Position numbers and translations under genes: made by a program. Below, piece after piece: positions 1-26,551 of a stretch of 26,551 bases of DNA. Below the pieces are notes generated by a model. That model made no database searches and was not told the origin of the DNA. It saw only the letters and a list, made by a program, of their open reading frames with translations. This DNA is from a virus (taxonomy: Duplodnaviria; Heunggongvirae; Uroviricota; Caudoviricetes). Where the stretch lies: the IMG/VR virus record IMGVR_UViG_2526164666_000046, one strand, 5' to 3'. Position 1 is the first letter of the stretch. Each line of letters begins with the position of its first letter.

Positions 1-90
1 CCCACCGCTGACGTGGTGTATGACACACCCGTTGTGATTTTTCCATCTGGTACATACCCCGTCTCCCGTTATCCGGAAGCTGACAACAAT

Positions 91-119
91 AAAAAAGCCA
101 CCAGTTAACTACTGATGGC
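91..119 (-). terminator. Putative rho-independent terminator downstream of the small late-region genes
   Basis: Minus-strand hairpin GCCATCAG-(7 nt)-CTGGTGGC (one wobble pair) at plus 97-119, followed immediately by U6 (plus A-run 91-96); lies 13 nt past the stop of the 132..404 gene. Confidence 0.4.
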
Positions 120-131
120 CCTGACTCCCCG

Positions 132-404
132 TTACAGCATCATGACCGATTCGGGTTGAGGTTCAGTCGCATCGGCGACCGGTGATTCAGGCTGAACTTC
201 ACCGCTCTCTGCGGTGGTATCTCCCGCTTCAGTCGGTGGCTCTGCCTGTACACCAAGCAGCTCATCCAGAATGGCATCAACCTCTGCATCAAGACGCGCT
301 TCCAGGTTATGGCGAAGTTTTTGTTCAGTTGCGCTCCGGACTTCTTCAGAGCGCAGGACTTCCTTCACTGCTTCAGCAGTGACCAGGGATGTAATTTCTG
401 ACAT
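132..404 (-). CDS. Small acidic hypothetical protein (90 aa, MSEITSLVTAEAVKEVLRSEEV...), lambdoid late-region accessory protein
   Basis: ATG at 404-402 inside the 132..578 track ORF; the upstream 58 codons of the track ORF overlap the neighbouring gene and look non-coding. Acidic Pro/Glu-rich C-terminus. No family assigned. Confidence 0.5.
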   Translation of the reverse strand: MSEITSLVTAEAVKEVLRSEEVRSATEQKLRHNLEARLDAEVDAILDELLGVQAEPPTEAGDTTAESGEVQPESPVADATEPQPESVMML

Positions 405-444
405 GGGATTTTCTCGTCGAAAGATGTGATTAAGAAAGTTGCCG

Positions 445-624
445 CTAAATGAGCGGCTCTTCGGGTTTGCTTCCGGCTGACTGACTGGCGCTGATTTTCT
501 CAGCGGCCCTTTTTGCAATCTGTCTGCGCCAGACGTCACGCATGGCCCGGTATCCACCCGAGAGGAGATACAGCACACAGACCACCGTACAGAAGTACAG
601 CATTAACTGGTTCAGAAATGTCAT
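445..624 (-). CDS. Small single-pass membrane protein (59 aa, MTFLNQLMLYFCTVVCVLYLLSGG...)
   Basis: Below the 60-aa cutoff of the ORF track; ATG at 624-622 with GGAAAG 8 nt upstream, stop TAG at 447-445; one hydrophobic helix followed by a basic tail. Function unknown. Confidence 0.4.
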   Translation of the reverse strand: MTFLNQLMLYFCTVVCVLYLLSGGYRAMRDVWRRQIAKRAAEKISASQSAGSKPEEPLI

Positions 625-722
625 AATTTCTTTCCGTTATTGTTGACAATAAGAACTGTTTTCATTAAAAAACCAGAGTACGAAAGTATCGTTCCTTTAT
701 TTTTTCTCCATAGGTATCACCA

Positions 723-758
723 CCGCCAGCGTCCATTCCTGTCGCTGGCGGTTTTTTT
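723..758 (+). terminator. Strong plus-strand intrinsic terminator (9-bp GC stem + T7) in a minus-strand intergenic gap
   Basis: CCGCCAGCG (723-731) / loop 732-742 / CGCTGGCGG (743-751) followed by TTTTTTT (752-758). Not usable as a minus-strand terminator (no U-tract on that side). Confidence 0.5.
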
Positions 759-759
759 A

Positions 760-1446
760 TCATGCCGCAGTGTCTGTGCTGTTCACTTCCACCGCAATGC
801 TGTCTATCAGTACCGGGTAAGTCGCACCTCTGGTAATGTCTGTCACATGCAGTTTATCCGCCGCAAAGGCACTGACCGGTGACTGCGTCAGCGTGAACGG
901 TGTGCCAACCTGACCATCAATAACCGGCGTCACCTGAAGGCTGTTATTCCCGGCAAAGCGGAAAGCCAGCGTATGCCATTCGTTATCAAATGCGCCAAAG
1001 GTTCCCAGTTTCAGGTTGTTTGTCGCCACTTTCGCATTGTGGTACATCACATTCAGGTCTTTTGCATCTGTCTGGATGTAGAACGCTGCCAGCAGGTTAT
1101 TCCCCCCGTCTCCGGTCAGGGCAACGCCCTGTGGCAGTGAAGATACCGGCCAGTAAAACGCCATAACATACTGGTTCGCAGCCAGCGCTCCCGAAACCTT
1201 AAAGCGGCAGCGAATCTGCCCCCCTTTCTGTAACAGAGCCGCACCGTTGCCCGCGGCGTACTCCAGCACCCAGCTGCTTTTACCGGCTTCCTTGGTCAGC
1301 TTCACTGCCTTACCTCCGGTTCCCTCCGCATCGCTGACCACTTCTGCCCTGCCGCCACTGGCTGACCATCCCTGTACTTTCAGGCTTCCCTCTGACTCGC
1401 TGGCAAGGTAAGAGAGCAGTGCTCGCGACGCCTGTGGCTTCTGCAC
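760..1446 (-). CDS. C-terminal domain ORF (228 aa), probably the displaced 3' portion of the upstream esterase gene; possible carbohydrate-binding domain
   Basis: Open frame with no ATG (the track 'M' is GTG; first internal Met near residue 94); overlaps the esterase frame by 67 nt; Gly/Ala/Thr-rich beta-type composition. The two-piece layout fits a frameshifted long esterase gene. Confidence 0.45.
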   Translation of the reverse strand: MQKPQASRALLSYLASESEGSLKVQGWSASGGRAEVVSDAEGTGGKAVKLTKEAGKSSWVLEYAAGNGAALLQKGGQIRCRFKVSGALAANQYVMAFYWPVSSLPQGVALTGDGGNNLLAAFYIQTDAKDLNVMYHNAKVATNNLKLGTFGAFDNEWHTLAFRFAGNNSLQVTPVIDGQVGTPFTLTQSPVSAFAADKLHVTDITRGATYPVLIDSIAVEVNSTDTAA

Positions 1447-2699
1447 CGGAAGGCGATGACGGGCGCACCTCTGATACTGTCGATGATGCCCCCGCGTTTA
1501 GCGCCACTCTTCCCGCATGGCGCAAAATCGCCGTTGCCAGGACGGCCGGAAATAATCCCGCGGCGAGCCCATGAACTGAAATGGCTCGCCCTGTCCTGTG
1601 ACGTCCAGGTGGCTGAGCTGTCACGCCATTTCGAACCGTAATATCCGATACCCGGAATGTCCGGGTCTTCTTCCGGTTTGTTCGTCGGCACATTCACCCC
1701 GTTCTCATCCGTCATGAACGGTACGAAATGGATATTCTTTTCCGTTTTGTTTTTGTAGCTGCCGTACACCGTCTGGTACGAGGATTCGTTCTTCTGCTTC
1801 CAGAAATACGTCGTATCTCCACATATCCAGGGAACACCGCCAGCAGAGCCACCGACGCACTGACCTGCCATATCCGCCAGGTCTGCACGGAATTTATCAA
1901 CCAGCGCACCAAACTGTGCTGCGTGATTTACCGGCGTACCGCCAAAATCAAATTCCCCCTGCATCCACACCACGGCAAACAGCACATTTTTCGGGTTCTT
2001 CTTCAGTGCTGCTTTTGTTCGACCGATAAGGTCCTTATACAGCGGCTTGTCCACACCCCAGCGGGTTGAATTCTCCGAGGCACCACTCGCGTCACTGTAT
2101 GTGCCATCGGCTCCGGTGGTGAACGCTGAACCACCACGACAGCACGGAACCAGCAGAATGCCCGCATTCGCCGGTATAAACGGCAGCAATTTTTTGGCGA
2201 TATGCAGCCCTTGCCCCACGGTTCCGTACTGCCCCTTTGACAGGTCCGCTTTCGGATGGTTAAGGCGGCTCATGTCCTGCACATCATGCAGACAATGGTC
2301 CGCCGGAATGATGTCGTTATATTTGCATGCTGCACCGCCCGGTGTCACCGTACTGCGGCGCGCCAGCTGCTTAATACGCGGGTCCGGACGGTCATATGTC
2401 TCCGGCAGCGGAAGGCCTTCACCATATGCCATGCTGTTTGACTGCCCCGCCAGAACCACAACAAAGTAATACTCCGTGTCTCTGGTGGCGCTGATTACTG
2501 TGCCTTCTCCATCCGACGGCTTCACCAACACAGGTGTGGTGACATCACCTTCCGCCGCAATGGCCTGCATCAGAGTATAAGGCGTGATGGCCACCGGACT
2601 ACCAAACGGCTGCCAGCCCTCTTTCAGTTTGTGTGTCAGCTTTTCCGCAAGGTCTGACGGCGACGCCGCCCTGACAACATCATAATGTTTAATCGACAT
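1380..2699 (-). CDS. DUF1737 + SGNH-type esterase, NanS-p-like sialate O-acetylesterase (prophage late-region accessory gene)
   Basis: ATG at 2699-2697 (MSIKHYDVVRAASPSDLAEKLTHKLKEGWQPFGSPV, DUF1737-like N-terminus) with GGGAG 8 nt upstream; esterase block VVVLAGQSNSMAYG (GQSN catalytic-Ser motif). The last ~80 codons (R/C-rich) look out of frame. Family assignment from memory of prophage NanS-p proteins. Confidence 0.65.
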   Translation of the reverse strand: MSIKHYDVVRAASPSDLAEKLTHKLKEGWQPFGSPVAITPYTLMQAIAAEGDVTTPVLVKPSDGEGTVISATRDTEYYFVVVLAGQSNSMAYGEGLPLPETYDRPDPRIKQLARRSTVTPGGAACKYNDIIPADHCLHDVQDMSRLNHPKADLSKGQYGTVGQGLHIAKKLLPFIPANAGILLVPCCRGGSAFTTGADGTYSDASGASENSTRWGVDKPLYKDLIGRTKAALKKNPKNVLFAVVWMQGEFDFGGTPVNHAAQFGALVDKFRADLADMAGQCVGGSAGGVPWICGDTTYFWKQKNESSYQTVYGSYKNKTEKNIHFVPFMTDENGVNVPTNKPEEDPDIPGIGYYGSKWRDSSATWTSQDRASHFSSWARRGIISGRPGNGDFAPCGKSGAKRGGIIDSIRGAPVIAFRCRSHRRREHCSLTLPASQREA

Positions 2700-2925
2700 C
2701 GAATTTCTCCCGTGTACAGGAACAGAGTTAAAAAGCGGAACCGGAATCAAATTACAGGATGGCCATCTGCCAGTGGCTGGTCGTAAAAAAAAGGCCAACG
2801 CCATGCGCAGCCGGAAATAAAGGGATAACGATGATAGTTTGAGAAAAACAGAAACAACACTTTTGTGGCAAAGCATGGTGCCGGGTGCCTCCCGGTGAAT
2901 TCAGTATCAGCACCTGAATCCGCGA

Positions 2926-3577
2926 TTATCCCATATACCTGGTTGCTGATCGCCCCTCCGCACAGGGGGATTCACCATGCAGTAGTATTTTTAATAAACA
3001 GTAAACAAAAAAATCAAGCATTATGCAGGCTGTTTCTTTTATCACCGGCCACAGCAATACCACAATGCCGCAGACCAGCACCCCATCCGCCAGCACCGAC
3101 ATGATTCTGCTGGTGAAATCCACCATCACCACCAGAAACAGCAGGAGTGCAGCCACAGCCAGGCGCAGTTTTACCGCACAGGTGATTCTCCAGACGAAGA
3201 CCCAGAACACCGGCAATCTCTTCCAGCACCTTGCGCTCTTCCGGCTCAATTTCGCCGTCTGCCTCCGCAATGGCCACCGCCACATCCAGCACATCTTCCG
3301 CTTCACGCGTATCGTGTTTCACATCCTCGATCTCACGTAACGCCGCACGACGTACCATTTAAGTTCGTATCCAGCTGACCGATAATGGTTGCGCTAATCG
3401 CATTAATTTCTGACGTAAACGCGGACAGCGCAGGCTGATTACGCAGTACCTGTTCGATCTTCGCTTTCTAGGAAGCCTCACATTCACCATCTGCACAGGC
3501 CACCAGGTAGGCAGCATTAATAACCGCCTGTGCCAGATCGCGTTTCTCAAACTTTCCTTTTTCCGGTTAACATGACA
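2926..3577 (-). pseudogene. Decayed TerB-domain (tellurite-resistance TerB-like) gene followed by a hydrophobic segment
   Basis: TerB-like sequence is split over three frames: ...KGKFEKRDLAQAVINAAYLVACADGECEAS, in-frame TAG (plus 3468-3470), KAKIEQVLRNQPALSAFTSEINAISATIIGQLDTN, frameshift near 3340-3358, VRRAALREIEDVKHDTREAEDVLDVAVAIAEADGEIEPEERKVLEEIAGVLGLRLEN, then another shift into a transmembrane-like stretch (2926..3306 ORF). No intact start codon. Confidence 0.5.
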
Positions 3578-3671
3578 TACCAATAACTCTTGTCTAAAAA
3601 GCCAGCAAGATAAAAAGCCAGTATTCACGACCACCAGCGTGTTTACTGTACTGCACAAGGTTTACAGGTAC

Positions 3672-3689
3672 AAAAAAACCGCTCAGCGG
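3672..3689 (-). terminator. Putative minus-strand intrinsic terminator (candidate tR'-like site)
   Basis: Minus strand reads CCGC-TGA-GCGG followed by U7 (plus A-run 3672-3678). Short stem, so low confidence. Confidence 0.35.
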
Positions 3690-3814
3690 CGGGTTTAAGT
3701 TGTGTGGCGAAGTAACCACTCTTAACACGATATAATACTTTTTGCGTACGCGTTAGGATTTTTATAAACTATGCGTCCCCATTCTCGCTATCTTTAGTCG
3801 GTCCTGGAATACAC

Positions 3815-4261
3815 ATGAAAGTTAGAAGCATAGGATTTACAATAAATAACAATAACAAAAATATTAATACCGTTGACGTAATGAATGCTTTTATCAACGC
3901 ATCAAACAGAGAACACAGTCGCACAGACTATACTCGTAAAATTCTCATTTCGGATGTGAATGATTTCTATTATGGATTAGTTGTCACATTCAGAAACCAA
4001 AAAAAGAACTGTAAGTCGCAATTTGTTGATGGTAAATTCCAGCTTAAAATTGAAGATCTTCAAGGAAGTGACAAACTTGCTAATTTCAACTTTTTCTTAA
4101 TTAAAAAATCTAATCTTTCTGGTCTCTATATGTATCACCACGGTTCATGCAGTCTGAACACTCTCTTTTCTCATTTAGAAACAATAAGTAATGAATTTAT
4201 CAGAAATCAAAATAAAGAAGAAATAAAAAACTTGGTGATAAACCAAAACAAAAAGAAGTAA
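3815..4261 (+). CDS. Hypothetical protein (148 aa), first gene of the AT-rich Q-proximal cargo cassette
   Basis: Very AT-rich ORF with Asn/Lys-rich composition; TATAAT-like box about 80 nt upstream. Its frame and the next ORF's frame are both open across an A6 run (4225-4230), so this may be the N-terminal part of a ~270-aa protein. Confidence 0.45.
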   Translation: MKVRSIGFTINNNNKNINTVDVMNAFINASNREHSRTDYTRKILISDVNDFYYGLVVTFRNQKKNCKSQFVDGKFQLKIEDLQGSDKLANFNFFLIKKSNLSGLYMYHHGSCSLNTLFSHLETISNEFIRNQNKEEIKNLVINQNKKK

Positions 4262-4305
4262 CTGCAATAAATAAAAAATACAAAGAAAGACTGACTTTCA
4301 GCCTT

Positions 4306-4629
4306 ATGACAAATAAAAACAACATTCAGAGTGTTTTATGTCAATTCAAAGAGATTAAAAGCACAAGCTTTAAATTTAATTATATAGATTTTAAAGGTGG
4401 ACCAATGACTGCGCTTGAACAATTTGTTAACACCACCACAATAGATATGAATTTTAATTCTAGCGACAGAACAAAAGTGCAACAACTATCTCAGAATCTT
4501 TCAAATATTTATAATTCTATGAGTGGAGTTGCTAAAGCACAGGTTATTGCAGTAAACCATGCAGGAATAGAAAAAACCATTGATTTTATGAACTGCCCTG
4601 TTTTTTTGAAACATACGATTTCGATATAA
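4306..4629 (+). CDS. Hypothetical protein (107 aa), possibly the C-terminal part of the preceding gene
   Basis: Weak RBS; its frame is open upstream to 4216 and overlaps the end of the 3815..4261 frame. Same composition as its neighbours. Confidence 0.4.
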   Translation: MTNKNNIQSVLCQFKEIKSTSFKFNYIDFKGGPMTALEQFVNTTTIDMNFNSSDRTKVQQLSQNLSNIYNSMSGVAKAQVIAVNHAGIEKTIDFMNCPVFLKHTISI

Positions 4630-4725
4630 TTGCCGATAAAGTCAATGGATTGACAAACGATAATTATACAACAAACCCTGTTTTTGATATGATAAAAGAA
4701 GAAATGCTGAACGGGACGAATAAAA

Positions 4726-5274
4726 ATGCCTTTATATGAATGGCTAATAAATAAAAGATTGAGGTATCAGTACCTTACACTGCTTGCATTCTCGATCCTG
4801 GCATTGCTTGCACTTTACCTATTGTACAGAAACACACCTAAAGTAAGTGTTAACTTTTTTGAGTTTTATCATAAAAACTTACGAGGCTATCTCTTCTCCG
4901 GTTTTATTTCCGTGGGCTCATTTTTATTGAGCCTGCATACCTTTGTCATAATAAATTTACGCGATAAGGTTTTTGCAACTCAGGAATATAAGGAAATTTA
5001 TAGCATTGCCACTGGTATACCTATTGACAAAATCAATGATAGTGTACTTTATAAACCTTTAGACAATTTATCCTCATTTATTAATACATCAATATTATGT
5101 TCTATCACAACAGCAATTGCACAATTCACTATTGGACTTTCAACTAATTTATATGCATGCTTATTTTGCGTATGGCTTGCAATACTAACGGTATTTCTTT
5201 TATTACATTGCCTCATCATAATCAGACAAAATATTAAAATTTTATTAAAGCAACAGAGAAAAAAAGGGGGGTAA
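4726..5274 (+). CDS. Four-helix integral membrane protein (182 aa), last gene of the cargo cassette
   Basis: Four hydrophobic segments (YQYLTLLAFSILALLALYLLY; LFSGFISVGSFLLSLHTFVII; ILCSITTAIAQFTIGL; LYACLFCVWLAILTVFLLLHCLIII) and a basic C-tail; stop lies in the loop of the hairpin at 5266-5281. Confidence 0.55.
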   Translation: MPLYEWLINKRLRYQYLTLLAFSILALLALYLLYRNTPKVSVNFFEFYHKNLRGYLFSGFISVGSFLLSLHTFVIINLRDKVFATQEYKEIYSIATGIPIDKINDSVLYKPLDNLSSFINTSILCSITTAIAQFTIGLSTNLYACLFCVWLAILTVFLLLHCLIIIRQNIKILLKQQRKKGG

Positions 5275-5288
5275 TTCCCCCTAATATT
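5262..5288. terminator. Bidirectional hairpin terminator between the convergent membrane-protein gene and Q
   Basis: GGGGGG (5266-5271) / TAATT / CCCCC (5277-5281), flanked by an A-run on the plus side (5259-5265), which gives U7 on the minus strand directly after Q. Confidence 0.5.
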
Positions 5289-5628
5289 ACAACATTGAAA
5301 GCACACCATCCAGAAAACCAAGAGCTGTTTGCAACTCTTTTCTTATTGTCCCATCAGAACACTTCTGCTTCTTTGCAATAGTTCTTAGTGAGATGCCGAT
5401 AACAAAATGAGCAATAACCAACTCATACTCTTCGGGCTTATATTTCCGCAATCGCGCAACACAGCTGTCAATCATGATTCCTTCATCATCATCGCATTGT
5501 TGGCGTGTTTTCTTTCCATGAGGTAGTAAACCTTTAAACCCTGCAGCAACAGGCTGCCAGTCCACACCACTGTTATCTGCTGCAGCCCATGCACCCCAGC
5601 GGTCCAATACTTCATACATATCACGCAT
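5287..5628 (-). CDS. Late-gene antiterminator Q (Phage_antitermQ family, QuuD-like)
   Basis: MRDMYEVLDRWGAWAA...VDWQPVAAGFKGLLP...QQCDDDEGIMIDSCVARL...IAHFVIGISLRTIAKKQKCSDGTIRKELQTALGFLDGVLSML closely parallels the remembered E. coli QuuD sequence. Start taken at the ATG at 5628; the track ORF offers 5643 as an alternative. Confidence 0.8.
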   Translation of the reverse strand: MRDMYEVLDRWGAWAAADNSGVDWQPVAAGFKGLLPHGKKTRQQCDDDEGIMIDSCVARLRKYKPEEYELVIAHFVIGISLRTIAKKQKCSDGTIRKELQTALGFLDGVLSML

Positions 5629-5645
5629 CAACTTTCTCCACAAAA

Positions 5646-6641
5646 TCAGGCCAGCACGCCAATTGCCAGTGCACGATCGATAAAACGAAATATCAGCTCC
5701 AGCTGGGAGCCATACTTCTCTTCAAATGCCACGGTATCCGCATGCAGCTCGTCGTGATGCTTTCTGCACAAAGGCAACACAAAGAGGTCATGCGCTTTTG
5801 TAGCCATTCCACCCTGACCGTGACCTATCAGGTGGTGGGGATCATCAGCAGGTTTTCCACAACATGCGCACGGCTGCGTCTTAACCCATCGCGTGTACTT
5901 TTCATTAACCCAGCGGCGACGTTTTGGGCGTAACATAAAAGACTCCGGCGACTCCGGATCCACTTTCAGCGCCAGCACCTTTTTCGCTTTATCCTGGATG
6001 ATGCTGGTGGCAGGAACCGAAGGCACAAGGTCACTTTCCCGGGTGACAGACGGCACAACAGGCTTCGGTAATCTCAGTACCTTACGGGCTGCACTTTCCG
6101 GTAAGGCATCCGCCAGATCATTACGAATCAGCCACCAGCACAGTTCCGGCATTGTCACAACGTGACTGTCATCAAAACCGAGATCCCGACGCACGACAGA
6201 CAACACCCAGCGGGCACAGTTATCCGTTGCCATTGATTCCAGCCGTTCCGTGAACTGATCGCGCAGCTGGTTATCGCAGTGCCAGCACAGACGGATTGCG
6301 CCCGGCGCGTGTCGCATTGTGGTCATGTTCTCGCTGTGCCAGTCGGAATGAGGCCACTGGCAGCCTTTTTCACGAAGTAACCAGCTTTCAAGACATTCCA
6401 CGCCACCAGCACGACGGATCACTGCCTCATTGCGGAACACGGCCCGAACGGCAGGATCATCCGCCAGCGGTTGTGATGCCGCCGGAACGGCACCACTGGC
6501 GAAAGATGAATAACGTTCCGGCTCAGGCTCCAGCAGGACACGCCCCTGCATAAACAGGGGCATCAGCTCTGAACCTGGCCTGAACAATACGATCCCCATA
6601 CGCGGGGCAATTTCAGGGGTCAGTAGCGCTCTCACGGTCAC
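5646..6641 (-). CDS. DUF968-family phage protein (YdfU-like) with HNH-like Cys/His cluster
   Basis: C-terminal QPCACCGKPADDPHHLIGHGQGG...LPLCRKHHDELH motif pattern; position just upstream of Q as in Qin-type prophages. Start uncertain (GTG 6641/6635 or ATG 6599). Confidence 0.6.
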   Translation of the reverse strand: MTVRALLTPEIAPRMGIVLFRPGSELMPLFMQGRVLLEPEPERYSSFASGAVPAASQPLADDPAVRAVFRNEAVIRRAGGVECLESWLLREKGCQWPHSDWHSENMTTMRHAPGAIRLCWHCDNQLRDQFTERLESMATDNCARWVLSVVRRDLGFDDSHVVTMPELCWWLIRNDLADALPESAARKVLRLPKPVVPSVTRESDLVPSVPATSIIQDKAKKVLALKVDPESPESFMLRPKRRRWVNEKYTRWVKTQPCACCGKPADDPHHLIGHGQGGMATKAHDLFVLPLCRKHHDELHADTVAFEEKYGSQLELIFRFIDRALAIGVLA

Positions 6642-6642
6642 C

Positions 6643-7440
6643 TCAATGAACGGTATCGAGCAGCTTTAACAGCTCAGGGAACCGGGATTCGAAGAAATGC
6701 GGCTGCGTCTCGCGCGGATTTGCGGGACTGGTGATGTTCTTGCCGAACATGCAGCCTTTCGCCGTCAGCGACCAGAATTTTTTGATGTTGTTAATCGCAG
6801 TGCGGCTGTATCGTTCACGTTGTTCAACGATCCCCAGCTTCGCCATCTGGTGATATGCCTGATTAGCTGTCAGGCGGATACCATACTGCTTCAGCAGTGC
6901 ACTCAGTGACAGCGTGGGGCGGCTTGAGCCATCAGGCGCGTCAGCAGGAGCATCAATGGCATAGCGCGGTGCCAGATTCGGTAAGCCAACAGCCTCCTGG
7001 AGTTTCTGACAGGCTCCAAGCACTGATGAGTTAGACAGGTTTAATTCCCGGCGCATAAAGTCCAGCAGGATCACACCAGCCTGCATCTTGTCAGCAGCCT
7101 GTCCGGATAATTTTTCCGGTGCGCTGGTTACCATGTCGAAAGTACGGATCACCTTCAGATGGAATGACGGGCTGATCCACATTGCATAGGCATACACCAG
7201 TTCTTTGCAGACATACGTCCCCTGGCTATTTCCGCCACGAATAACGTTAACTGGCTCTATATTGACCGAGTTGCAAATCTGCAACTCGCTTATTAAACGT
7301 TCAGTTTGCTCATTGCGGAGCCAGAATGCAGGCTTATGCTTATCCAGAGAACCGGCAGCCCTGTGCAAATCGTTCAGGCTGTAACGACCATAAGCATCAC
7401 GACGAACTTCAATACCATCAATGACCATCAGATTATTCAT
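6643..7440 (-). CDS. KilA-N domain phage protein
   Basis: MNNLMVIDGIEVRRDAYGRYSLNDLHRAAGSLDKHKPAFWLRNEQTERLISEL fits the KilA-N N-terminal pattern as I remember it; ATG at 7440 with GAGGAG-type RBS. Confidence 0.55.
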   Translation of the reverse strand: MNNLMVIDGIEVRRDAYGRYSLNDLHRAAGSLDKHKPAFWLRNEQTERLISELQICNSVNIEPVNVIRGGNSQGTYVCKELVYAYAMWISPSFHLKVIRTFDMVTSAPEKLSGQAADKMQAGVILLDFMRRELNLSNSSVLGACQKLQEAVGLPNLAPRYAIDAPADAPDGSSRPTLSLSALLKQYGIRLTANQAYHQMAKLGIVEQRERYSRTAINNIKKFWSLTAKGCMFGKNITSPANPRETQPHFFESRFPELLKLLDTVH

Positions 7441-22560: not shown

Positions 22561-23233
22561 GTATCAGAATAGCTAATATAATCCTGAAGGTAAAGAAAAT
22601 GGAAACCCTATTCAAAGTTTTTGAAAAATTTAGTTCCAGACCACTTTTTTTATTTTTTTCGGACTCTCACTTTGTGAATTTTTTCAGAAACAATCTGTTC
22701 TGATGAATCCATCAGCAGATAACATCGCGAAATTATTCGCAGCCATGATATTAGTTGTTTTTTTACTTGGGGATTTGAATGGCTAATCTTCAAGTTCAAT
22801 GTAAACCTTGAACCTCATGATCAAGGCGATATTGGACCAACAATTGGAACGGCTACTTTAGCTGTATACTTAGTTTATGCCTTTCACTTTCTCAGTGAAA
22901 ATCCTGAAGCATTAAATTTAAAGTTATTAACTAACTCTGGCTTTATATACAGCACAACTCTATTATTATTCTCATTAGAATGCATGAAGCTTAGAAGACT
23001 TAAACAAAAATAAACAACATCATTGTGATGATAAATATAAAATAGGCATGGCGAAAAAAAATCACCACGCCTAAAATATAATAATTATGGTAGCATCATT
23101 GATACATAATCCACACCAATCCTTGAGCTATACTGAGACGCTATAGCCTGATATCTTTCTGCATAACCAGTTCTCAGTTGAGATTTAAGTTTGAGTCGGA
23201 CAGGAACATTTTGCACGTTGCCATCCATATTAC

Positions 23234-24832
23234 TTAAAAACACGGCAGAAATAATATTTTTTCTTCGCCATCAACTGTTGTTCCATGATTCAACACCACC
23301 ATATAATCAACAACAGGAAGCGTTTTATCCCCTTCGAAAATAGAGAGATATTTTCTTTGATTTTTATGCATTACATATATATATTTCGAATGTTCAGCAA
23401 ATGGCAATGCTTTACTCTGACTGGCGTTAAAAAGCTCCAGAACTTTAATGAGCCTGTGCGGACTTAATCTTACATGGTGAGGGTCGTTACCCTGAGTAGG
23501 AACCAAATCACATGCCGCAGATACACATAAATACCATTTGTTCGACTCTGTATCAAAGAAAATAGTGCCAGTAGAAATATGACCATCTTCAAAATTCTTT
23601 GAAGACAAATTCATATTTAAAGCATGATACATTTCGTGATAAGTATCATTATTTGATGGCAGATCCATTTTTGAAGAGCAATATTGGAGCAATGCAGCAA
23701 CTCCGCTGTTAGCGTATTCATTTGAATAGCTATCAAAAACACTTTTGATAAATTCATCCAGCGTATTATTATTTTTAAGTCTTTGATAAAGCTCTTCTGA
23801 TAAATTACCAAATACAAAGTCAATATTTCTACATCTAATATCAGGCGAGTCTGATTTTAATATCTCATTTAACCACGCAGCTTGACCGTAATGATCGTTA
23901 GCCAAATGATTTACAAAAGATAAAGCCTCAGCTTCGATTGCATTCTGAATTTCAGATTTTATTAACTGATAATAAGATGGTTTCCATTCAATGAGAGAAT
24001 CATTGAGAGTTTGCCAAATCCTATCTCCATCGTTTTCATGATCATCTTGAACCTTATGAAATAGGGAGACAAAGATATTACCACATTGAATCCATTTTAC
24101 TCCGCTTTCATCACCCCGAATGACATTGCCAGATGTGTTGCTAGAAATAATTGCATTTCTAGACACAGCATATTCTGCAATCATTTTTGCAATGAAGTTT
24201 TTATCCTTTTGATCCTCCAACACAGCATCATCATGTATTAATCTTTTAATTCTTCTACAAGGCTTACTGTCTTTAATATAGGCTATTATTTCATCTCTTG
24301 TGAGAGCTTTATTACCATTATCATTTAAGTTCGGTAATACAACGTCTTCCCAATAACTTTGGACATCTTCATTATCGTAGTCAATGATCAAGCTGTTGAT
24401 ATCCAGAGCACCTTTGAGAGTCGATGATATCTGCATCCAAACCGTTTCTAAATTCTCTCTAGTATATATTACAATCATATTTAAATGATCGGAGTCTTTC
24501 AAATCTTGTAATAGTTTAAGTGTTTTATCAGGTGCATTATTATCAAGATGATAATCTACAATAATAAGATCTGATTTTCTAATCCGATCCACATCGAAAT
24601 TAACAGAACCATTGTCAACATCACAAATCATATTTTTAGATTGAAAAAAGCTCTCAAGAGTAGCGGCTCGTTTAGATGAGTCAATTTTGTTGTAGTCTAA
24701 ATCAACTTCGTTATTCAACGCCCTGATTGATTCAGAATACGTCAGAAAATCGTCATCAATCATGACAACGGAACGAATTGCATTTTCGCAGAAAGTTTTC
24801 TGGACAAGAGAATTATAATTTGCCACTGTCAT
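23234..24832 (-). CDS. Receiver (REC)-domain protein fused to a ~400-aa uncharacterised C-terminal domain (532 aa); candidate effector of a two-component-type module
   Basis: N-terminal REC-like pattern: SVVMIDDD (acidic pocket), DLIIVDYHL (phospho-acceptor Asp position), NMIVIYT (conserved Thr position). ATG at 24832 with GGAG 7 nt upstream, 1 nt after the kinase stop. Very AT-rich. C-terminal domain unrecognised. Confidence 0.6.
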   Translation of the reverse strand: MTVANYNSLVQKTFCENAIRSVVMIDDDFLTYSESIRALNNEVDLDYNKIDSSKRAATLESFFQSKNMICDVDNGSVNFDVDRIRKSDLIIVDYHLDNNAPDKTLKLLQDLKDSDHLNMIVIYTRENLETVWMQISSTLKGALDINSLIIDYDNEDVQSYWEDVVLPNLNDNGNKALTRDEIIAYIKDSKPCRRIKRLIHDDAVLEDQKDKNFIAKMIAEYAVSRNAIISSNTSGNVIRGDESGVKWIQCGNIFVSLFHKVQDDHENDGDRIWQTLNDSLIEWKPSYYQLIKSEIQNAIEAEALSFVNHLANDHYGQAAWLNEILKSDSPDIRCRNIDFVFGNLSEELYQRLKNNNTLDEFIKSVFDSYSNEYANSGVAALLQYCSSKMDLPSNNDTYHEMYHALNMNLSSKNFEDGHISTGTIFFDTESNKWYLCVSAACDLVPTQGNDPHHVRLSPHRLIKVLELFNASQSKALPFAEHSKYIYVMHKNQRKYLSIFEGDKTLPVVDYMVVLNHGTTVDGEEKILFLPCF

Positions 24833-24833
24833 A

Positions 24834-26551
24834 TTAGAACTCCACTCCATTGAACTGGATCACAAAATTAGCGCCATCTTTTATTAAATAGTTATCGCCT
24901 TCATCAGGTTCTGAATACCATATTTTATGATGTGCAACAGCAAGGTTTTCTCGACATAGATACAGACCTACCCCATGTCCATTTGCTCTTTTGCTATAAA
25001 ATAGTTCAAATAGTCGCGGGATATCATCGGTATCAATTGCCGGACCAGAATTTGCTATGATAACCAAAGAATTCACAAAACCAATCTTTATGAGCCTATT
25101 ATTTGACAGACTGACCCAATACATTGCATTGTTGATAATATTAGTAAAAACAGGATAGATCCTTAATGGTATATCTGTTATTGCGATTTGCTTAAACTCT
25201 TCACTAAATTCAATAGTTATTCGTTGCCGTTCGAAACGCTCCCCAAAGAACTTCAGGACATAATCCATGATATTTTTTCCAGTTATTCTCTGCCTGGATT
25301 GATAACCTGATATTTTCAAAGGTGATAAGAAACGTATTTGTTGAGTAAGCGATCTGTGAGCATTTAACGCCAATGAAAAACCAGGGTGTTCTTTTACAGA
25401 AGTAGGAAGAGAGTTTAGTCCTCTGGTTACCATAGAATCCATTTCTTCAAGTTCATGAGATATTATCTCAACACTAATACCTAACTGTGCAAGCGCGTTT
25501 AAACTTTTAGCTTTTTCTTCAAAATATGAGCGTTCTTCTTCAGATAATGAGAATGCTGAATCTAAGTTTATACCTTCAAATAATCTATCGAGACCTTTTA
25601 TTATTGATTGATATTTGAAAGTTAGGGTATCAACTGACTCAACATATAAACTATCGAGCAAATTAAACACATTTTCAATTTGTGAATCATTATCTATTGA
25701 ATCAACAACTGATATAGTTTTAGCATAATAATCACTTCGATCAACCTTTATTTCATCGGCCCATTTTTTTAAAAGAGAATGTATCTTCTCCTCTATCGTG
25801 TTATTAAACTTAGTTAGTTTAGAATTAATAATACCTTGATTTTTTCAAGGTGATTTTTCGCTGACAATGAAGGCTCAAGTTTATTTAATTCAGAATCAAG
25901 TTTATTAATTGCTAACTTCATTTGTAGAATATACGCAGAGAACTCATTAAATTTATCTCTGTAGTCTCTATATTTCTCTTCATACATTCCAAGTTTTGGA
26001 GGTTTGATAGGCGTTTTAATTTCACTGCGCAACGCATCTAAGTTTGTAAGATCACTGTCTATAATTTTAAGATAGTTTAAATCTAACGAACCATCAGTTT
26101 TATCAAGCTTAGTTTTCAGCCTTTTAACAGCCTCCAAGGAAGCATCAAGAACTGGTGTCTGATTCTTCAAAGCTTCTGAAAAACTTTTTTGTGTTGATTT
26201 TCGAGCTTGTTGTTGAGCAGATTTTCTTAACTCTTTTTCACGCTTAACTTGTTCTAAAAGCTCTTTACGGTCATCAGAACGTGAACCAAAAAATCTATCA
26301 GCAAGTTCAGTTAACAAATTAGATATAATAGTTTTCAGTTCTCTTGCAGCCTGGTTTCTTATGAATCCCTCTCTCCCCGACTTATCTTTCAGCTCTTTAT
26401 TACTGGATTGAGTAATTCCAATATAACCAAAAATCCTTCTATTAGACCAATAATATCGCCCTGCATTCCATGAACGTCTTTCTTCTATCTGGAAGAAATC
26501 ATTATCTACTCGACCATAAGGTAATACTCTCAAGCTATCCCTAAAAATCAT
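24834..26551 (-). CDS. Sensor histidine kinase (HisKA H-box + HATPase_c), 5'-partial at the window edge, reading frame interrupted at an A6 run
   Basis: Downstream part (frame open 25844..24834, no start codon) carries H-box IISHELEEM, N-box FTNIINNAMYW, G1 IANSGPAIDTDD, G2 GHGVGLYL. Upstream part (26551..25814, continues beyond window) ends 30 nt after the frame switch. One extra A in the minus-strand A6 run (plus 25840-25845) would fuse both into one ORF of at least 580 aa. Confidence 0.6.

What the first reader, a model, noticed from the sequence alone, without database searches (positions are those of the whole stretch)
25814..25850. Histidine kinase split exactly at a homopolymer: 1-nt slip in an A6 run
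The upstream kinase ORF stops at 25816-25814, while the frame encoding the H-box and ATPase domain is open from 25844 and has no start codon of its own. One additional A in the minus-strand A6 run (plus T-run 25840-25845) restores a single continuous ORF. This is either a sequencing homopolymer error, a genuinely inactivated gene, or slipped-strand on/off switching of a costly system.
Basis: seen in the sequence. Interest (0 to 1): 0.55.

Follow-up and report, generated by a model that had tools for sequence, protein, structure and literature searches.

The report
Homopolymer sequencing error splits kinase remnant
The split histidine-kinase gene is real in this sequence, but it is most likely one of many single-base miscounts of long A/T runs in a draft E. 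coli assembly, and the gene is only a leftover fragment of a larger system, so the finding is ordinary.

Summary
On the minus strand one frame ends at TAA 25816-25814. The frame carrying the H-box and ATPase domain opens at 25844. One extra A in the A6 run (25845-25840) fuses them into a 572-aa protein identical to E. coli WP_000577251.

The split is most likely an assembly artefact. The window is 100% identical, over the 6.7 kb compared, to draft contig AIGQ01000065.1. Against the nearest complete genome the window has 20 indels and only 7 substitutions. Ten homopolymer runs are shortened and none lengthened. Shortening affects 7 of 25 runs of 7 or more bases but only 3 of 410 shorter runs. 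Seven genes are frameshifted, including the adjacent response-regulator gene. Sister assemblies from the same accession series show overlapping but different sets of the same contractions.

Of 561 complete E. coli genomes with this locus, 530 match the A7 sequence exactly, 2 have A6 and 2 have A8. Genuine A6 and A8 alleles do exist in clean assemblies, so a real mutation cannot be excluded without reads.

Phase variation is not supported. Length variants are rare, and the tract is A5 in more distant orthologues.

The E. coli gene is itself a 5'-truncated remnant (residues 376-988 of a 988-aa protein) that has lost its partner methylase.

The parts
25840..25845 (-). A6 run (T6 on the plus strand). 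It is A7 in 530 of 561 complete E. coli genomes and in 99%-identical full-length orthologues.
25814..25816 (-). TAA stop reached by the upstream frame because of the missing A.
25845..25847 (-). TGA that closes the downstream frame on its 5' side; the frame is open from 25844.
25814..26551 (-). Upstream fragment of the kinase remnant (245 aa as listed; residues 417-653 of the 988-aa orthologue). The ORF runs off the window end.
24834..25844 (-). Downstream fragment (residues 653-988). It holds the HEF_HK H-box domain at 25311-25487 and HATPase_c at 24894-25169. The first in-frame start is GTG 25670.
23257..23262 (-). Second A7-to-A6 contraction. It frameshifts the adjacent Response_reg_2 gene, giving 532 aa instead of 582.
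23085..24832 (-). Response_reg_2 (receiver-like) partner gene, split at 23257-23262 into 23234..24832 and the tail 23085..23243.
22645..22764 (+). Two T8-to-T7 contractions (22645-22651 and 22758-22764) that break the 138-aa hypothetical gene next to the island integrase.

Best explanation
The A6 run is a one-base under-count of a true A7 run, made when this draft genome was sequenced or assembled. The window comes from contig AIGQ01000065.1 of GCA_000250015.2, an E. coli O26-type strain of the DEC collection. That assembly systematically shortens long A/T runs. The real gene is most likely a single 572-aa ORF like the one in nearly all other E. coli. That ORF is itself the IS3-bordered 3' remnant of a 988-aa paraMORC-type kinase (HATPase_c_3 + HEF_HK + HATPase_c). 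In intact islands the kinase sits in a C5-methylase / kinase / Response_reg_2 operon next to ssrA. Shown: the sequence differences, their pattern, and the population frequencies. Inferred: that the differences are errors rather than mutations, because no reads were available.
For: (1) Source. The window's reverse complement, bases 1-6738, is identical to L008/L022 = AIGQ01000065.1.

(2) Error pattern. Against the nearest complete genome (2013C-4225) the window has 20 gap openings and 7 mismatches in 26.5 kb. Ten homopolymers are shorter and none longer. By reference run length the shortened fraction is 1/276 (4 nt), 1/97 (5), 1/37 (6), 4/19 (7) and 3/6 (8). Fisher's test for runs of 7 or more against runs of 4-6 gives p = 9e-8. 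The binomial test for 10 contractions and 0 expansions gives p = 0.002.

(3) Damage. Seven CDS are frameshifted: holin, SASA esterase, DUF3927, two hypotheticals, the response regulator and the kinase.

(4) Sister assemblies. AIGK, AIGS and AIGR, from different strains, each carry 4-6 one-base deletions, almost all in A/T runs of 7 or more, in the same island. The sets overlap but differ, and come with only 0-9 substitutions. Three of the four keep A7 at the focal site. A published comparison also noted unexplained frameshifts in DEC9A, DEC9E and DEC10D genes (PMC5592225).

(5) Population. Of 561 complete E. coli genomes with the locus, 530 match the A7 81-mer exactly, 2 have A6 and 2 have A8. 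All the closest relatives of the window have A7. The 99%-identical full-length orthologues also have A7.

(6) Rough odds, my inference. About 0.2 chance of an error per A7 run in this assembly, against roughly 0.005 population frequency of real A6, gives about 40:1 for artefact.
Against: No reads or quality values could be inspected, and the sequencing platform could not be verified because Hazen et al. 2012 is not held. A6 is a real allele elsewhere. In OkiPb01712, ABOQRQ01, AASPIR01, JAOQKT01, ABRVDQ01, ABLPDE01, ABKABQ01 and LFIB01, A6 is the only homopolymer-length difference (in most the only indel) over the 5-11 kb compared, and it sits on two haplotype backgrounds. The exact 245-aa product is recorded on 105 contigs. 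The remnant gene is evidently dispensable, so a genuine A6 in this strain would not be surprising.
Confidence: 0.85

Rival explanations
1. The A6 is a genuine A7-to-A6 replication-slippage mutation in this strain: ordinary pseudogene decay of an island remnant that is no longer under selection.
For: Clean assemblies carry A6 with no other homopolymer-length difference, on two haplotypes. A swine lineage carries a clearly inherited A8, seen in CAU16175 and PEC240, which share other variants. Other lesions occur: Q67* (CAG to TAG) in CP074961, CP074958 and further loci, and a deleted G next to the run. The gene lacks residues 1-375 and its methylase partner in every E. coli copy inspected.
Against: In this window the A6 is accompanied by nine other contraction-only homopolymer differences, with almost no substitutions, and by six other broken genes. 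The closest complete relatives all have A7. Real A6 is about 0.4% of complete genomes.
Confidence: 0.12
2. The tract is a contingency locus. Slipped-strand mispairing switches the kinase on (A7) and off (A6 or A8) at a useful rate.
For: Both A6 and A8 exist in public assemblies at similar counts: 105 and 95 contigs, and 2 + 2 complete genomes.
Against: Variants are rare, 4 of 561 complete genomes. The two complete A8 genomes belong to one lineage rather than being scattered. A7 is short for a hypermutable tract in mismatch-repair-proficient E. coli (established knowledge, not tested here). The tract is not conserved: the same (D/E)-K-N codons give only A5 in orthologues of 83%, 73% and 64% identity. 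The tract lies mid-gene in a 5'-truncated remnant, and other lineages inactivate the gene by nonsense mutation instead.
Confidence: 0.02
3. The split is decoded by programmed -1 ribosomal frameshifting or transcriptional slippage on the A run, so a full-length kinase is still made.
For: The downstream frame is -1 relative to the upstream one, and the shift site is an A run read by Lys-tRNA (sequence).
Against: Homologues are single ORFs with A7 or A5 at this position. In frame, the sequence CTT GAA AAA ATC is not an X XXY YYZ heptamer. No conserved split architecture exists. A6 is too short for efficient transcriptional slippage (established knowledge).
Confidence: 0.01

Closest known systems
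Homopolymer-length errors in draft assemblies (pyrosequencing, semiconductor and nanopore-type under-calls)
   Same: Errors are confined mainly to long A/T runs. Their rate rises steeply with run length. All are contractions. Many genes are frameshifted while substitutions are almost absent. The same style recurs in sister assemblies.
   Different: The platform of this assembly was not verified, and a few indels in window 325-3360 lie outside homopolymers.
HEF_HK / Response_reg_2 two-component-like module of paraMORC ATPases (Bellieny-Rabelo et al. 2021, PMC8011034)
   Same: HEF_HK (26.1 bits, cutoff 24.1) plus C-terminal HATPase_c, and an adjacent Response_reg_2 gene (109 bits). Intact orthologous islands have a C5 DNA methylase immediately upstream, as that paper reports.
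   Different: The E. coli copy lacks the N-terminal HATPase_c_3 domain and the methylase, because the locus is cut at an IS3 junction.
Phase-variable contingency genes (slipped-strand mispairing in simple repeats)
   Same: A mononucleotide run inside an ORF whose length changes by one base switch the reading frame. A6, A7 and A8 alleles all exist.
   Different: Variants are rare. The complete A8 genomes belong to one lineage. The tract is short and not conserved among orthologues.
Pseudogene decay in IS-truncated genomic-island remnants
   Same: Independent frameshifts, a nonsense mutation and IS3-flank micro-deletions occur in different lineages.
   Different: For this particular window the lesion is more likely an error than decay.

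Membership tests
Sequencing/assembly homopolymer artefact | Differences from close relatives concentrate in long homopolymers, with a length-dependent rate | tested here: met
   Shortened fraction is 1/276, 1/97, 1/37, 4/19 and 3/6 for runs of 4 to 8 nt. Fisher p = 9e-8.
Sequencing/assembly homopolymer artefact | Directional bias and an excess of indels over substitutions | tested here: met
   10 contractions and 0 expansions; 20 gap openings against 7 mismatches in 26.5 kb.
Sequencing/assembly homopolymer artefact | The same error style in other assemblies of the same project, not following strain relationships | tested here: met
   AIGK, AIGS and AIGR carry overlapping but different sets of contractions and keep A7 at the focal site.
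Sequencing/assembly homopolymer artefact | Reads or an independent re-sequence show the longer run | not testable with these tools
   No read data are available and the platform paper is not held.
HEF_HK / Response_reg_2 TCS-like module | HEF_HK phospho-acceptor domain with a core His followed by an acidic residue | tested here: met
   PF19191 E = 1.2e-5, 26.1 bits against a 24.1 cutoff. The motif S-H-E-L-E-E has its His codon at 25457-25455.
HEF_HK / Response_reg_2 TCS-like module | C-terminal HATPase_c | tested here: met
   PF02518, 44.8 bits.
HEF_HK / Response_reg_2 TCS-like module | N-terminal HATPase_c_3 (paraMORC) domain, present in 83% of the family | tested here: not met
   Absent from the E. 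coli locus, where homology starts at residue 376 of the 988-aa orthologue. Present in orthologues. The published family also includes members without it ('group 2').
HEF_HK / Response_reg_2 TCS-like module | Adjacent gene with a Response_reg_2 receiver domain | tested here: met
Phase-variable contingency locus | Frequent tract-length polymorphism among close relatives | tested here: not met
   530 exact A7, 2 A6 and 2 A8 among 561 complete genomes. The two A8 genomes are one lineage.
Phase-variable contingency locus | Repeat tract maintained across orthologues | tested here: not met
   GAA AAA AAT occurs only in the 99% group. GAT, GAG or GAC followed by AAA AAT/C gives A5 in orthologues of 83%, 73% and 64% identity.
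Phase-variable contingency locus | Measured switching rate well above background | not testable with these tools
   Needs fluctuation assays or deep reads.
Programmed ribosomal frameshift | Split-ORF architecture conserved in homologues, with a slippery heptamer | tested here: not met
   Homologues are single ORFs, and the sequence has no in-frame X XXY YYZ motif.

The most novel reading that the evidence does not exclude
The A7 run could be a genuine mutational hot spot that repeatedly toggles (A6/A7/A8) what remains of a paraMORC-type kinase. Its kinase core might still signal to the Response_reg_2 protein, giving E. coli lineages a heritable low-rate on/off switch for an uncharacterised, possibly defence-related, module.
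Probability: 0.03. Interest if true: 0.35.

Novelty: not a real feature. Interest (0 to 1): 0.08.

Why it matters
It matters mainly as quality control. This window, and the draft assembly it comes from, carries systematic one-base contractions in A/T runs of 7 or more. Any frameshift, split gene or apparent pseudogene called in it at such runs should be distrusted, and at least seven genes are affected in this window alone.

There is also a secondary annotation point. The widely annotated 572-aa E. coli 'ATP-binding protein' is a truncated remnant of a 988-aa kinase from a methylase / kinase / receiver operon. It should therefore not be taken as a natural short architecture of that family.

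Tried and rejected
- PADLOC gave no meaningful hit for the kinase, the receiver protein or the 138-aa neighbour. The only hit was a weak chance match (C3a59, E = 0.007), so no known defence system could be assigned.
- A PDB sequence search with the receiver protein found nothing.
- The paper describing the DEC draft genomes could not be read, so the platform is unverified. Calling AIGQ 'DEC10B' is only an inference from the accession order given in PMC5592225.
The A8 allele was examined through complete genomes instead.
- A SNP comparison of 33 loci was meant to decide whether A6 arose once or repeatedly. It had little resolution, 20 variable sites in 4 kb, and shows only that A6 sits on at least two haplotypes.
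- I first read the 459 + 609 contigs carrying the 278-aa C-terminal ORF as a count of A6 alleles. I rejected that, because some of those contigs have A7 with an upstream nonsense mutation.
- The locus is not present in the plasmid collection.
- I considered a mismatch-repair-deficient mutator strain as the cause of all the contractions. I rejected it as unlikely, because substitutions are almost absent and unrelated sister assemblies show the same pattern.

Full report
**1.

On the minus strand the ORF entering from the window end (26551) stops at TAA 25816-25814. A second frame is closed by TGA 25847-25845 and open from 25844 to the stop at 24836-24834. The two frames overlap by 31 nt, and the A6 run at 25845-25840 (T6 on the plus strand) lies in that overlap.

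Adding one A produces a 572-aa protein identical to WP_000577251.1 of E. coli O26:H11 11368. A 988-aa orthologue (P0036) aligns to the window as residues 417-653 in one frame and 653-988 in the other, across the sequence HLEK|NQG.

The downstream part carries HEF_HK (PF19191) and HATPase_c (PF02518). The claim that it has no start codon is nearly right. The first in-frame starts are GTG 25670 and TTG 25661, at codons 58 and 61, and no Shine-Dalgarno-like sequence precedes GTG 25670.

**2. Where the window comes from**

The window is E. coli chromosome. It holds a lambdoid prophage (about 1-19.6 kb), two integrases and a DUF4760 gene. These are followed by a small island remnant: a 138-aa hypothetical gene, a Response_reg_2 gene and the kinase-like gene. 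In relatives this remnant abuts IS3 and the glaH-gabD region. Where no prophage intervenes, the island integrase lies next to ssrA.

The reverse complement of the window, bases 1-6738, is identical to contig AIGQ01000065.1 of GCA_000250015.2. AIGK is DEC9A and AIGS is DEC10D according to PMC5592225, so AIGQ is probably DEC10B. That identification is an inference from accession order only.

**3. The A6 is one of many contraction-only homopolymer differences**

- Against the nearest complete genome (2013C-4225) the whole window shows 20 gap openings and 7 mismatches.
- Ten reference homopolymers are shorter in the window and none is longer.
- By reference run length the shortened fraction is 1/276 (4 nt), 1/97 (5), 1/37 (6), 4/19 (7) and 3/6 (8).
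- Fisher's test for runs of 7 or more against shorter runs gives p = 9e-8. The binomial test for direction gives p = 0.002.
- Seven annotated genes are frameshifted: holin, SASA esterase, DUF3927, a 308-aa hypothetical, the 138-aa hypothetical (hit twice), the receiver gene (A7 to A6 at 23257-23262) and the kinase.

Three other assemblies of the same accession series (AIGK, AIGS, AIGR) come from different strains. Each carries 4-6 one-base deletions, almost all in A/T runs of 7 or more, in this same island. The sets overlap but differ, they come with only 0-9 substitutions, and all three keep A7 at the focal site. Several Logan assemblies of single runs behave the same way. An independent paper reported unexplained frameshifts in cas genes of the DEC9A, DEC9E and DEC10D assemblies.

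A pattern like this does not follow strain relationships. It is what systematic under-calling of long runs produces.

**4. Population data**

Of 5,426 complete E. coli genomes, 561 hold the locus.

| Allele at the focal run | Complete genomes | Notes |
|---|---|---|
| A7 (exact 81-mer match) | 530 | includes all closest relatives of the window |
| A6 | 2 | ESBL 15 (noisy: six one-base deletions in 8 kb) and OkiPb01712 (clean) |
| A8 | 2 | two swine isolates of one lineage |
| other difference within the 81-mer | 27 | not examined further |

All the closest relatives of the window have A7.

The A6 product is on 105 contigs, the A8 product on 95, a deleted-G variant on 9, and the A5 product on none.

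Real variants therefore exist. Several assemblies have A6 as their only homopolymer-length difference over 5-11 kb, and they sit on two haplotypes. The A8 allele is inherited in one swine lineage. Another clade carries Q67* instead.

My rough estimate is as follows. The chance of an error per A7 run in this assembly is about 0.2. The population frequency of real A6 is about 0.005. That gives odds of roughly 40:1 for artefact. I lower this to 0.85 because no reads could be seen.

**5. Phase variation and recoding are not supported**

Length variants are rare, and the complete A8 genomes form one lineage. The tract is not conserved. The 99% group has GAA AAA AAT (A7). Orthologues at 83%, 73% and 64% identity have GAT/GAG/GAC AAA AAT/C, which gives A5. 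All homologues are single ORFs, and the sequence has no canonical slippery heptamer in frame.

**6. What the gene is**

[quoted passage not shown] 2021 (PMC8011034). That pair is related to paraMORC ATPases and linked to C5 methylases and R-M systems.

Full-length orthologues that are 99% identical occur in Serratia, Klebsiella and Salmonella. They are 988 aa and have an N-terminal HATPase_c_3 domain. Their islands read, from the smpB side: integrase, 138-aa gene, receiver protein (582 aa), kinase (988 aa), C5 methylase (its 3' end overlaps the kinase start), relaxase, second integrase. More distant loci keep a C5 methylase gene next to the kinase-receiver pair.

In every E. coli copy inspected, homology begins at residue 376. 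That point is the IS3 right end, or an IS3-excision-like scar where IS3 is absent. The methylase is gone. So even the 'intact' 572-aa E. coli ORF is a remnant, which explains why independent lesions are tolerated.

**7. Verdict**

The most likely cause is an assembly homopolymer error (0.85). A real slippage mutation in a decaying remnant is the main alternative (0.12). Switching or recoding is very unlikely. Interest is low.

Noticed in passing
window 23257-23262 (gene 23085-24832, minus strand): The adjacent Response_reg_2 gene is also frameshifted by an A7-to-A6 contraction, giving 532 aa instead of 582. The same lesion appears in the three sister DEC assemblies and in several single-run Logan assemblies, and once as the only difference in an otherwise identical 5.4-kb draft contig (AASQCP01).
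   Followed up: yes
window 22645-22651 and 22758-22764: Two T8-to-T7 contractions break the 138-aa hypothetical gene beside the island integrase.
   Followed up: partly
window 1-4607: This stretch holds most of the window's differences from the closest genome: 15 of the 20 indels, including non-homopolymer ones at 325-329, 1424, 1540 and 3353-3360. They frameshift the prophage holin, SASA esterase, DUF3927 and a 308-aa hypothetical gene. The cause may be low-quality consensus or collapse of paralogous lambdoid prophages.
   Followed up: partly
window 26551 and beyond; L001:5878-6000: The kinase gene is a 5'-truncated remnant in every E. coli copy inspected. Homology to the 988-aa orthologue starts at residue 376, at the IS3 right end. 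The annotated ATG at 26551 is the internal Met417. The N-terminal HATPase_c_3 domain and the upstream C5 methylase are lost.
   Followed up: yes
L036:7812-15472 (Logan SRR32566526), L041, L042, L043: Intact versions of the system keep a C5 cytosine methylase gene next to the 988-aa kinase and 582-aa receiver pair, on mobile elements (an ssrA-side island with a relaxase, a conjugative-element context, and a Tn7-like TnsD/TnsE context). In three of the four loci the methylase lies directly upstream and its 3' end overlaps the kinase start, as in an operon.
   Followed up: partly
L039/L040 (CAU16175, PEC240); L018/L019 (CP074961, CP074958); L016: Other natural lesions of the same remnant: an inherited A8 frameshift in a swine lineage (plus a further stop in PEC240), a Q67* nonsense mutation in another clade, and a deleted G next to the run.
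   Followed up: yes
L007, L012, L010, L035, L039 around locus position 5880 (junction with the alpha-amylase remnant): Lineages differ by small deletions flanking the IS3 site, and some lack IS3 altogether. These look like footprints of IS3 excision or adjacent deletion.
   Followed up: partly
literature, PMC8011034 'group 2' architecture: The published HEF_HK + HATPase_c architecture without HATPase_c_3 may partly consist of truncated remnants such as this E. coli 572-aa ORF.
   Followed up: no
receiver protein residues ~180-582 (window 23085-24300): The C-terminal ~400 residues are modelled with high confidence (model mean pLDDT 85.7) and include invariant Cys, Asp and Arg positions. They have no Pfam, PDB-sequence or fold match, so the output domain is unknown.
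   Followed up: partly
window ~21796: A 9-bp in-frame difference in the island integrase relative to O26 11368 (406 aa against 409 aa). The nearest complete genome, 2013C-4225, shares it, so it is a real polymorphism rather than an error.
   Followed up: yes
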